Source of the DNA: Naegleria gruberi
Taxonomy: Eukaryota
Length of the DNA stretch: 1,151 bases
Assembly (NCBI GenBank): GCA_000004985.1
Contig: GG739527.1
Reading direction: 5' to 3' (one strand)
Within the stretch, counting starts at the first letter, position 1, and each line of letters opens with the position of its first letter. The notes below the pieces were generated by a model that made no database searches, was not told the origin of the DNA, and saw only the letters and a program-made list of their open reading frames with translations. Shown piece by piece: positions 1-1,151 of the stretch. The position numbers were made by a program, and so were the translations under genes.

Positions 1-267
1 TTTGTGTACAACACATTGGGCAGGTTGAATGTAGCTATGGCTGATGTGGAAGGAAGCAAAGGGAGAACTCTCCTCTGGTGGTACTGATGAAGGTTGTTAG
101 CAGGGTGGTGATGAAATCATGGGTGATTGTTGTTTGTTGTTTTTTTTGTTGAATATTTAACGGTCATAACATTCAACTTTCAGCGGTAACATATTTGTTG
201 GTGGTGAAAAAACTCAAATGCAGTGGCCAGGATTTGTTGGGACGATCTTACAGTGAGGTTGGGTGGG
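1..267 (-). other. Non-coding 3' flank, covering the 3' UTR and downstream intergenic DNA of the minus-strand gene.
   Basis: All three minus-strand frames have stops here: plus-strand TTA, CTA or TCA at 35, 97, 117, 157, 164, 173, 180, 214 and 248. There is no plus ORF longer than 17 aa apart from the overlapping 223..411 artefact. No tRNA-like or rRNA-like signatures are present. Confidence 0.7.
125..200 (-). terminator. Putative mRNA 3'-end formation and polyadenylation region. On the mRNA strand it has A-rich positioning-like tracts and AT-rich elements.
   Basis: The reverse complement of 121..200 reads ...caacaaatatgttaccgctgaaagttgaatgttatgaccgttaaatattcaacaaaaaaaacaacaaacaacaatcaccc. 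It contains 'aaatatgtta' and 'ttaaatatt' (AT-rich, efficiency-element-like but not a canonical TATATA) and an A8 run followed by (CAA)n-like A-rich sequence. It lies about 70-145 nt downstream of the stop. Yeast-type poly(A) signals are degenerate, so this is only suggestive. Confidence 0.3.
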
Positions 268-1151
268 TCAAAAAGTGAGGGTTGTAATTATGACAATCTT
301 CCTATTGTTATTCGAAAGTTGTTGAGCCAATCCATTAAAAAGAAGTGGAAAGTGAATGTTTGGAAGTTGAACATTCACCCAAGTAAATCCAGTAAATCCA
401 TTTCCATTTGAATTCATTGAGAAATGATTAATAGACGCATTATTGAATTGTTGTAAATGTGGTTGAACAATTAGGGATTGATTTTGGGGATGTCGCACCA
501 CTTGACCATTATTAATCGGTACATGATTCATCACTCTTTCATTTTGATTATTATTTCTTATAGGATTTATGTTTGCTTGCTGATTATTTCTAATAACATT
601 TTCATTCTGTTGTGGTTGATAGATAGTTTGATTTCTTGGTGGAGTATTATTCTGTTGTGTCTGTCGTGGTGGAGTTACATTCATCCTATTTCGTGGTGGA
701 CTATTAGTCTGTATCTGTCGTGTCTGTTGTGTCTGTTGTGGTGCTTGTGGACCTATTGGTGGTTGTGGTTGACCATTCACTTGAGCCTCCTCATTTTCAG
801 AGCCATTCTCTTGTCCATTTTCAACTCCAAATCTTTCCTGCAACTCCCTTGCTTTTCTATTAATTTTCAAATAGAAATTCTCCATCAAGTATGGAACATA
901 ATGTTGCCTGCAATGTTTCCAACTTTTTTCCTGAATATTTTCAATGAACTTCAACACCAAATTATCAATGAATGGAATGAGCTGGTTCTCGGTAATTAAA
1001 CGAGGAAGAGAAGGTTCTGAGAAAACTCTACGATTCTCCTCAGCAATGAAACATTTTACAATGTGAATTTTCTGGTATAGAGTAATGTGATGGTCGCAGT
1101 GGATATCGTTATAGTGACAGGATGGACATCGGCTAGAGGAGAGATGAGGTA
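268..1151 (-). CDS. 5'-truncated protein-coding gene. N-terminus lies beyond the window. Its product has a Cys/His cluster, a structured region and a long Q/N/P-rich prion-like C-terminal region. Likely a fungal nuclear regulatory protein of unknown identity.
   Basis: I checked in-frame plus-strand triplets for TTA, CTA and TCA, which would be minus-strand stops. There are none from 1149 down to the TGA stop at 270..268, which is the plus-strand 'tca' at 268..270. That gives at least 294 open codons in an AT-rich sequence where stops are frequent. The visible N-terminal translation is ...PHLSSSRCPSCHYNDIHCDHHITLYQKIHIVKCFIAEENRRVFSEPSLPRLITENQLIPFIDNLVLKFIENIQEKSWKHCRQHYVPYLMENFYLKINRKARELQERFG..., which is compositionally complex and protein-like. 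The track's 'M' at 958..960 is a TTG (plus-strand 'caa'), so it is not the true start. The first in-frame ATG in the window is at 885..883, but the frame stays open for 89 codons upstream of it. The other two minus frames over 1..267 carry several stops. Confidence 0.82.
   Translation of the reverse strand, partial: PHLSSSRCPSCHYNDIHCDHHITLYQKIHIVKCFIAEENRRVFSEPSLPRLITENQLIPFIDNLVLKFIENIQEKSWKHCRQHYVPYLMENFYLKINRKARELQERFGVENGQENGSENEEAQVNGQPQPPIGPQAPQQTQQTRQIQTNSPPRNRMNVTPPRQTQQNNTPPRNQTIYQPQQNENVIRNNQQANINPIRNNNQNERVMNHVPINNGQVVRHPQNQSLIVQPHLQQFNNASINHFSMNSNGNGFTGFTWVNVQLPNIHFPLLFNGLAQQLSNNNRKIVIITTLTF
634..702 (-). repeat. Three degenerate in-frame tandem units with a 27-30 nt period, each carrying an (S/T)PPR motif: NSPPRNRMNV, TPPRQTQQNN, TPPRNQTIYQ.
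   Basis: The plus strand has 'tcgtggtgga' at 691..700 and 664..673, and 'tcttggtgga' at 634..643. The spacings are 27 and 30 nt. The reverse complements encode S-P-P-R, T-P-P-R and T-P-P-R in the gene's frame. Confidence 0.7.
721..738 (-). repeat. Perfect 9-bp tandem duplication (tgtctgttg x2) encoding QQTQQT. A related copy, 'tctgttgtgtctgtcgtgg', lies at 651..669.
   Basis: The sequence 'tgtctgttgtgtctgttg' is read directly at 721..738. A similar 'tctgttgtgtctgtcgtgg' sits at 651..669. This is an in-frame microsatellite-like repeat inside the coding region. Confidence 0.75.
1051..1128 (-). other. Cys/His cluster (C-x2-C-x6-C-x-HH ... H ... C). Probably the C-terminal part of a zinc-binding module, such as the final CPxC pair of a RING, PHD or SP-RING-type finger, with the rest beyond the window.
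   Basis: Translation reads R-C-P-S-C-H-Y-N-D-I-H-C-D-H-H-I-T-L-Y-Q-K-I-H-I-V-K-C. That is four Cys and six His within 27 residues. 'CPxC' is a common terminal ligand pair in treble-clef and RING-type fingers. The module is cut by the window edge, so it cannot be classified. Confidence 0.35.

What the first reader, a model, noticed from the sequence alone, without database searches (positions are those of the whole stretch)
634..702. Three evenly spaced full-consensus CDK sites, (S/T)PPR, inside the Q/N-rich domain.
SPPR, TPPR and TPPR each match the complete proline-directed cyclin-dependent kinase consensus [S/T]-P-x-[K/R]. They recur every 9-10 residues, which is a 27-30 nt period at the DNA level ('tcgtggtgga', 'tcgtggtgga', 'tcttggtgga'). 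Clusters of full-consensus CDK sites in disordered regions are characteristic of multisite-phosphorylated cell-cycle and transcription regulators. That these are functional phosphosites is an inference from the motif alone.
Basis: partly seen in the sequence, partly recalled or inferred. Interest (0 to 1): 0.55.

Follow-up and report, generated by a model that had tools for sequence, protein, structure and literature searches.

The report
Duplicated S/T-P-P-R motifs, orphan Naegleria protein
Three real copies of a possible kinase target motif sit in the floppy middle of a protein found only in Naegleria gruberi; they arose at least partly by internal duplication, and nothing available shows whether they are ever phosphorylated.

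Summary
On the minus (coding) strand the window encodes SPPR (691-702), TPPR (664-675) and TPPR (634-645), spaced 27 and 30 nt apart, in an N/Q/P-rich segment with no predicted secondary structure.

The window is a whole 1151-bp Naegleria gruberi scaffold. It carries a fragmentary copy (NAEGRDRAFT_55023) of a 437-aa uncharacterised protein (NAEGRDRAFT_48002).

The three sites are not independent. Sites 1 and 3 lie in a 36-39-nt unit duplicated in frame (30 of 35 nt identical; 1 of 300 codon shuffles reaches the score). The middle site shares only the 12-nt core. S/T-P dipeptides are not enriched (3 seen, 2.3 expected).

The orthologue test cannot be run. An exhaustive search of 1.84 billion protein representatives and a metagenome scan found no relative outside N. 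gruberi. The one paralogue keeps all three motifs, but at about 89% identity in the linker that is expected by chance (p about 0.24).

I found no cyclin-docking or Cks1-optimal context, no Pfam domain, no fold match, no Naegleria phosphoproteome and no paper naming the protein.

Phosphorylation by a proline-directed (CDK-type) kinase remains the most likely mechanism, at about 0.4. A neutral repeat by-product is nearly as likely. Interest is low.

The parts
268..1149 (-). Open reading frame of 293 codons plus the stop at 268-270, cut at its 5' end by the contig end. It is a fragmentary copy of N. gruberi protein NAEGRDRAFT_48002. The annotated model NAEGRDRAFT_55023 (205 aa) starts only at the Met at 883-885.
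   Evidence: It is 87% identical with gaps counted (92% over aligned columns) to P0001 across 282-294 aa. Both indels are in frame (7 and 5 codons).
691..702 (-). Site 1: S150-P-P-R (AGT CCA CCA CGA)
664..675 (-). Site 2: T159-P-P-R (ACT CCA CCA CGA). It shares only the 12-nt core with the other two sites. Its P-R is also the first two residues of duplicated unit A'.
634..645 (-). Site 3: T169-P-P-R (ACT CCA CCA AGA)
688..723 (-). Duplicated unit A, aa 143-154, TRQIQTNSPPRN
   Evidence: 30 of 35 aligned nt identical to A', with one in-frame 3-nt gap. Self-alignment score 42 against 24.9 +/- 3.9 for codon shuffles; 1 of 300 shuffles reaches it. D3 finds the same pair.
631..669 (-). Duplicated unit A', aa 161-173, PRQTQQNNTPPRN
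   Evidence: D3
430..831 (-). N/Q/P-rich linker, probably disordered (about aa 107-240 of the fragment), which contains the motif block
   Evidence: Composition. The AlphaFold2 single-sequence model of the paralogue has no secondary structure and pLDDT below 50 over P0001 residues 138-270. The model is low confidence overall, so this is supportive only.
832..1080 (-). Predicted helical N-terminal domain (P0001 residues 55-137). It is the most conserved part between the two copies (96%).
   Evidence: No Pfam family.
1087..1128 (-). Cys/His cluster CPSCHYNDIHCDHH upstream of the helical domain. It may bind metal; this is untested.
   Evidence: Read directly from the translation. No family match.

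Best explanation
The 69-nt segment is the core of a decayed, in-frame internal duplication. It lies in the disordered N/Q/P-rich linker of a protein known only from Naegleria gruberi. The window is a fragmentary second copy, NAEGRDRAFT_55023, of the 437-aa NAEGRDRAFT_48002. The duplication multiplied a short linear motif, [S/T]-P-P-R. Shown: the motifs, their spacing, the coding strand, the duplication, the lack of relatives, and their retention in the paralogue. Inferred: the motif acts as an acceptor for a proline-directed CMGC kinase. CDK is the best fit because all three sites carry the +3 Arg and none has the MAPK -2 Pro. Up to three phosphates would then be placed next to Arg residues in an otherwise almost uncharged linker. 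That would change how the linker, or the helical N-terminal and beta-rich C-terminal parts it connects, interact with partners. I put the anatomical part at about 0.9 and in-vivo phosphorylation at about 0.4; the confidence given is for the phosphorylation mechanism.
For: All three S/T-P dipeptides of the fragment are full consensus [ST]-P-x-[KR]. They lie in a segment with no predicted secondary structure and pLDDT below 50 and with N/Q/P-rich composition. Three such sites within 23 residues occur in about 6e-5 of composition-matched shuffles. The block RQIQ...PPRNQ is 28/30 identical between the two N. gruberi copies. Its immediate flanks carry a 7-aa and a 5-aa indel, and the upstream flank is 75% identical. 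The two nucleotide differences among the three 12-nt cores, AGT/ACT and CGA/AGA, both keep the motif. Cdk1 with cyclins A, B, D and E is inferred for the last eukaryotic common ancestor and found in Excavata (PMC4862756). CDK site clusters typically lie in disordered segments (PMC4230602).
Against: Sites 1 and 3 are copies by descent, so clustering does not show selection. S/T-P is not enriched. Conservation in the paralogue is expected by chance (0.888^12 is about 0.24), and two motif-preserving changes out of two have a neutral probability of about 0.17 (my count: 15 of 36 single substitutions keep [ST]PPR). There is no RxL or LxxP docking motif in the window protein. No site has the hydrophobic or Pro -2 residue preferred by Cks1. 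The 9-10-residue spacing is at or below the roughly 12-16 residues I recall as optimal for Cks1 priming (Koivomagi 2013, from memory). Nothing is known about expression or localisation, and there are no phosphoproteomic data.
Confidence: 0.4

Rival explanations
1. Neutral by-product. The motif triplet is simply what in-frame duplication and slippage leave behind in a fast-evolving low-complexity linker. It has no selected function, whether or not a kinase occasionally touches it.
For: An internal duplication is demonstrated (D2, D3). The same linker holds other short repeats: a 9-nt array at 710-740, a 25-nt pair at 544-601 and a 9-nt pair at 382-400. The two copies differ by in-frame indels right at the block edges. 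S/T-P is not enriched. The protein is lineage-restricted with no detectable relatives. No docking motifs accompany the sites.
Against: The rest of the repeat unit has diverged beyond recognition around the middle site, while its 12-nt core stays 11-12/12 identical to the others. The motif block is better conserved between the paralogues (93%) than the segment upstream of it (75%). Neither contrast is statistically decisive.
Confidence: 0.35
2. Proline-rich docking ligand. P-P-R is the 'PPR' class of motif bound by group III WW domains (SH3-like or other proline-recognition modules are also possible). Three copies would give multivalent binding, and phosphorylation is not the point.
For: All three sites match PP[RK], the regular expression used for the PPR class of WW ligands in PMC1557994. 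Multivalent proline motifs in disordered linkers are a common binding design (general knowledge).
Against: PP[RK] is very short and matched promiscuously in that array study. There is no PxxP core at the sites. The invariance of S/T before P-P-R is not explained by this reading.
Confidence: 0.1
3. SPXX/SPKK-type beta-turn motif that contacts the DNA minor groove, as in histone H1 tails and some gene regulators.
For: S/T-P-x-x with a basic residue fits the loose SPXX definition (Suzuki 1989, from memory). AT-rich genome (37.5% GC in the window).
Against: There is only one basic residue per motif, and the surrounding linker is nearly uncharged, not lysine- or arginine-rich. No DNA-binding domain was recognised.
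Confidence: 0.03
4. The segment is not coding on the minus strand. The + strand ORF 478-999 (173 aa), in which the repeat reads S-W-W, would be the real product, or the region would be non-coding.
For: A 173-aa + strand ORF exists.
Against: The minus-strand frame is open for 882 nt to the contig end and continues through a non-repetitive domain. It matches a 437-aa protein encoded elsewhere in the same genome, with in-frame indels only. The + strand ORF is the L/I/W-rich mirror image of Q/N/P codons (TTG, ATT, TGG).
Confidence: 0.01

Closest known systems
Multisite CDK phosphorylation clusters in disordered regions (e.g. yeast Sic1 and Far1; ELM class MOD_CDK_SPxK_1)
   Same: [ST]-P-x-[KR] consensus. 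Several sites lie within a few tens of residues in a disordered segment. Two of the three acceptors are Thr.
   Different: No cyclin-docking motif and no Cks1-optimal context. The spacing is 9-10 residues. The sites are recent copies of one another. There is no phosphorylation evidence, and the host protein has no known function and no orthologues.
PPR-class ligands of group III WW domains (FBP21/FBP30 type)
   Same: P-P-R core, repeated, in a proline-containing disordered segment.
   Different: Known ligands are usually longer Pro/Arg-rich stretches. Here each P-P-R is isolated and always preceded by S/T. Binding was not tested.
SPKK/SPXX minor-groove-binding motifs of histone H1 and sperm histones
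   Same: S/T-P followed by a basic residue within the tetrapeptide, repeated.
   Different: One basic residue instead of two, in a neutral Q/N context instead of a basic tail.
In-frame repeat expansion in Q/N-rich low-complexity regions of protist proteins (as in Dictyostelium)
   Same: AT-rich genome, Q/N-rich linker, several short in-frame tandem repeats, and length differences between copies.
   Different: The repeated unit here carries a recognisable linear motif, not a homopolymer.

Membership tests
CDK full-consensus phosphosite cluster | Sequence matches [S/T]-P-x-[K/R] | tested here: met
   Three matches at aa 150, 159 and 169. These are the only S/T-P dipeptides in the fragment.
CDK full-consensus phosphosite cluster | Sites lie in an accessible, intrinsically disordered region | tested here: met
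   No secondary structure and pLDDT below 50 over P0001 residues 138-270, and N/Q/P-rich composition. The model is low confidence overall (mean pLDDT 41.6), so this support is moderate.
CDK full-consensus phosphosite cluster | Clustering beyond chance | tested here: inconclusive
   P is about 6e-5 against residue shuffles. But sites 1 and 3 are duplicates by descent, and S/T-P is not enriched.
CDK full-consensus phosphosite cluster | Cluster retained in orthologues while the surrounding sequence drifts | tested here: inconclusive
   No orthologue found. The only relative is a paralogue, 92% identical over aligned columns, which keeps 3 of 3 sites. That outcome is expected by chance with p about 0.24.
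CDK full-consensus phosphosite cluster | Accompanying cyclin docking (RxL, LxxP) or Cks1 priming context ([FILPVWY]-x-T-P) | tested here: not met
   None in the window protein. In P0001, the Cks1-type context occurs only at two other, minimal TP sites (T27, T334), and the single LxxP match lies in its C-terminal part. Docking motifs are common in CDK substrates but not obligatory.
CDK full-consensus phosphosite cluster | Residues are phosphorylated in vivo or by CDK in vitro | not testable with these tools
   No Naegleria phosphoproteome in the searched literature. No paper names either protein.
WW group III PPR ligand | PP[RK] core | tested here: met
   Three matches, using the regular expression from PMC1557994.
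WW group III PPR ligand | Binding to a WW domain | not testable with these tools
   No interaction data.
SPKK-type DNA-binding motif | S/T-P followed by two basic residues, in a basic tail | tested here: not met
   Position +2 is Pro, there is one Arg only, and the context is neutral Q/N.
Coding tandem repeat | Head-to-tail copies detectable at the DNA level | tested here: met
   The repeat finder families D2 (3 x 19 nt) and D3 (2 x 33 nt). Self-alignment is significant against codon shuffles. Tandem Repeats Finder does not call a 27-30-nt array at score 30 or above, so the repeat is decayed.

The most novel reading that the evidence does not exclude
The block would be a young multisite phospho-switch caught at birth. 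An in-frame duplication inside a species-restricted gene created a three-site CDK-type module, the middle site possibly forming across a repeat junction (...T-P | P-R...). Two N. gruberi copies of the gene already differ by in-frame indels exactly at the edges of the module.
Probability: 0.12. Interest if true: 0.35.

Novelty: new member of a known kind. Interest (0 to 1): 0.12.

Why it matters
If the sites are phosphorylated, this would be one more candidate substrate of a proline-directed kinase, in an uncharacterised, lineage-restricted protein of a non-model amoeboflagellate. It would also be a small example of linear-motif clusters arising by in-frame duplication. It opens no long-standing question. 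Its practical use is as a target to look for in a future Naegleria phosphoproteome, because the three sites fall on convenient tryptic peptides.

Tried and rejected
- **Pfam:** scans of the window protein and of the full-length paralogue gave no family. The only hit was a chance Olduvai match at E = 0.72.
- **Exhaustive phmmer:** P0001 against 1.84 billion representatives returned only the window's own protein.
- **Word-indexed searches:** the 114-aa N-terminal sub-sequence at E <= 10 returned nothing, not even P0001 itself. P0001 at E <= 10 returned only itself. That index is therefore patchy here.
- **Metagenome contig scan:** 600 pattern matches, none confirmed as a relative.
- **Exact-product look-ups:** the DNA encoding P0001 and P0002 is not on record, so no codon-level comparison of the two copies was possible.
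- **Structure:** the AlphaFold2 single-sequence model has mean pLDDT 41.6. Foldseek against the PDB gave nothing at E <= 0.001, and a PDB sequence search gave nothing at E <= 10.
- **Rfam:** only a sub-threshold lncRNA match, taken as chance.
- **Literature:** no Naegleria phosphoproteome. The accession numbers appear in no paper, nor in the supplements of the Naegleria pangenome paper.
- **Other motif readings considered and rejected from the sequence:** MAPK optimum P-x-S/T-P, DYRK-like R-x-x-S/T-P and Polo-box S-S/T-P.
- **Cdc4 phosphodegron:** rejected because of the basic residue at +3, which is disfavoured (from memory).

Full report
**What the window is**

The window is an entire 1151-bp scaffold of Naegleria gruberi. 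The 205-aa protein predicted from it (P0002 = XP_002667978.1 / D2W6R8 / NAEGRDRAFT_55023) matches at 100%, and its longest contig is 1151 bp.

The coding strand is the minus strand. One frame is open from 1149, the contig end, down to a stop at 268-270, giving 293 codons. The annotated model starts only at an internal Met (883-885). Upstream of that Met the frame is still open and still homologous to the second copy of the gene.

The second copy is P0001 = XP_002678854.1 / D2VAP2 / NAEGRDRAFT_48002, 437 aa, on a 537-kb scaffold. It is 87% identical with gaps counted and 92% over aligned columns. The two copies differ by two indels, of 7 and 5 codons, both in frame. Together with the 882-nt open frame in 37.5% GC DNA, this establishes the minus-strand reading. 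The 173-aa + strand ORF (478-999) is the L/I/W-rich mirror image of Q/N/P codons.

**Checking the observation**

- SPPR is aa 150-153, window 691-702.
- TPPR is aa 159-162, window 664-675.
- TPPR is aa 169-172, window 634-645.

The spacing is 9 and 10 residues. The repeat finder recovers the same three places independently, as a 19-nt family at 634, 664 and 691 with spacing 30 and 27 (D2). The fragment has 43 N and 35 Q among 293 residues.

**Is it more than chance?**

Shuffling the residues of the disordered segment gives three or more [ST]Px[KR] in about 6e-5 of trials, and three [ST]PP[KR] in none of 200,000.

That figure overstates the case, for two reasons:

- The number of S/T-P dipeptides is ordinary: 3 observed, 2.3 expected, P(>=3) = 0.41. 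What is unusual is only that all three are followed by P-R.
- That regularity has a simple cause. The best internal self-alignment of the linker's coding DNA pairs aa 143-154 (TRQIQTNSPPRN, window 688-723) with aa 161-173 (PRQTQQNNTPPRN, window 631-669). In it, 30 of 35 nt are identical, with one in-frame 3-nt gap. The score is 42, against 24.9 +/- 3.9 for codon-order shuffles, and 1 of 300 shuffles reaches it (D3).

Sites 1 and 3 are therefore copies by descent. The middle site shares only the 12-nt core with the others (ACT CCA CCA CGA, 11-12 of 12 identical), and its P-R is the first two residues of the second unit.

I cannot tell which history is right. One is three decayed 9-10-codon units. 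The other is a duplicated 18-19-codon unit whose junction (...V-T-P | P-R-Q...) made the middle site. The unit tails align no better than background.

All six Pro codons in the motifs are CCA, but CCA is also 12 of the 18 Pro codons elsewhere in the ORF, so that adds little.

The same linker holds other short in-frame repeats:

- a 9-nt array at 710-740 (QTQ-QTQ-QTR);
- a 25-nt pair at 544-601 (NPIRNNNQ / NVIRNNQQ);
- a perfect 9-nt pair at 382-400 (GFT-GFT).

**The host protein**

Neither copy matches a Pfam family. No PDB sequence matches at E <= 10.

The AlphaFold2 single-sequence model of P0001 is poor (mean pLDDT 41.6). It suggests helices at residues 55-137, nothing structured at 138-270, and a beta-alpha-beta unit at 343-427. 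Foldseek against the PDB gives no match at E <= 0.001.

The motif block therefore sits in a probably disordered linker between a helical N-terminal part and a beta-rich C-terminal part. The N-terminal part is preceded by the Cys/His cluster CPSCHYNDIHCDHH. The C-terminal part is present only in P0001. The function of the protein is unknown.

**Relatives and the conservation test**

- An exhaustive phmmer search of P0001 against 1.84 billion cluster representatives found only the window's own protein.
- The word-indexed search at E <= 10 found only P0001 itself among 2019 candidates.
- A scan of JGI metagenome contigs gave 600 pattern matches and no confirmed relative.

The gene is therefore, as far as these collections go, restricted to N. 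gruberi. That is not unusual in this genus, where the core genome is only about 25% of the pangenome (PMC9928731).

The only comparison is between the two N. gruberi copies, and all three motifs are kept. The block RQIQ...PPRNQ is 28/30 identical. The 43 residues upstream of it are 75% identical and carry a 7-aa indel. The downstream segment is 90% identical, with a 5-aa indel immediately after the block.

This agrees with constraint but does not show it. At 88.8% per-site identity in the linker, 12 conserved motif residues out of 12 has p about 0.24.

The two nucleotide differences among the three cores (AGT/ACT and CGA/AGA) both preserve the motif. By my count, 15 of 36 possible single substitutions preserve it, so two out of two has p about 0.17.

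The DNA of the second copy could not be retrieved, so no dN/dS comparison was possible.

**Context expected of CDK substrates**

No RxL or LxxP docking motif occurs in the window protein. None of the three sites has the hydrophobic or Pro residue at -2 that Cks1 prefers. There is no MAPK-type P-x-S/T-P, no DYRK-like R-x-x-S/T-P and no Polo-box S-S/T-P.

Among proline-directed kinases, the CDK consensus is the best fit, because of the +3 Arg at all three sites.

Cdk1 and cyclins A, B, D and E are inferred for the last eukaryotic common ancestor and are found in Excavata (PMC4862756). Multisite CDK networks typically lie in disordered segments and depend on site spacing, Ser/Thr choice and docking motifs (PMC4230602).

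The 9-10-residue spacing is at or below what I recall as the Cks1 priming optimum, about 12-16 residues (from memory, not checked).

No Naegleria phosphoproteome is in the searchable literature. No paper or pangenome supplement names either protein.

**Mechanism and rivals**

I commit to this reading: an in-frame duplication multiplied an [S/T]-P-P-R linear motif in a disordered linker. The motif most likely serves as an acceptor for a proline-directed, CDK-type kinase. Up to three phosphates would then sit next to Arg residues in an otherwise uncharged linker.

The anatomy is shown, at about 0.9. The phosphorylation is inferred, at about 0.4.

The rivals are:

- **Neutral by-product (0.35).** The triplet is what repeat turnover leaves behind in a fast-evolving low-complexity region.
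- **PPR-class ligand (0.1).** P-P-R also matches the class of WW-domain ligands defined as PP[RK] in PMC1557994. That motif is short and promiscuous, and this reading does not explain the invariant S/T.
- **SPKK-type DNA-binding turn (0.03).** This fails on the single basic residue and the neutral context.
- **Non-coding or + strand reading (0.01).**

**Verdict**

Its statistical support is weaker than it looks, because the sites are duplicates. This is at most a new candidate member of a well-known kind of feature, in an uncharacterised protein restricted to N. gruberi. Interest is low.

**Unresolved**

Window 1-297, downstream of ...QQLSNNN on the minus strand, does not encode the 120-aa C-terminal part of P0001, and the window's frame stops after 15 unrelated codons. 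It could be a truncated paralogue, an intron running to the contig end, or an assembly artefact. The DNA of NAEGRDRAFT_48002 is needed to decide.

Noticed in passing
window 1-297 (minus strand, downstream of aa 282): Homology to the full-length paralogue P0001 stops at ...QQLSNNN. The window's frame ends 15 codons later, and none of the 120-aa C-terminal part of P0001 is encoded in any frame. It could be a truncated paralogue, an intron reaching the contig end, or an assembly artefact.
   Followed up: partly
window 883-1149: The annotated protein NAEGRDRAFT_55023 starts at the Met at 883-885. The frame stays open and homologous to P0001 for 88 more codons up to the contig end, so the gene model is a fragment cut by the scaffold.
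   Followed up: yes
window 710-740: A 9-nt in-frame tandem array (3.4 copies, 86% matches) encodes QTQ-QTQ-QTR just upstream of site 1. The paralogue has a different sequence with 7 extra residues here.
   Followed up: partly
window 544-601: Two 25-nt copies 33 nt apart (80% identical) encode NPIRNNNQ and NVIRNNQQ. Arg recurs roughly every 7-15 residues along the linker, which hints that the S/T-P-P-R units belong to a longer, more decayed array of R-terminated units of about 10 residues.
   Followed up: partly
window 382-400: A perfect 9-nt tandem duplication (AGTAAATCC x 2.1) encodes GFT-GFT. It is identical in the paralogue.
   Followed up: no
window 1087-1128: The Cys/His cluster CPSCHYNDIHCDHH lies at the start of the conserved N-terminal part, with further C/H in WKHCRQH at aa 77-83. 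It is a possible metal-binding site with no family match.
   Followed up: partly
window 478-999 (+ strand): A 173-aa antisense ORF rich in L, I and W, in which the motif repeat reads S-W-W. It is the mirror image of Q/N/P codons, not a gene.
   Followed up: yes
window 127-151: A T/G-rich 7-nt repeat (TTGTTGT, 3.9 copies) lies in the part of the window with no assigned coding function.
   Followed up: no
window 140-334 (+ strand): A sub-threshold Rfam match to HOXA11-AS1_6 (20.2 bits against a gathering score of 50, E = 0.096). It is a vertebrate lncRNA family, so I take this as chance.
   Followed up: yes
tool behaviour: the search for homologous proteins did not return P0001 for a 114-aa exact sub-sequence of it, and did not return P0002 when queried with P0001. 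Negative results from that word index are therefore weak for these proteins. The exhaustive search is the negative that counts.
   Followed up: no
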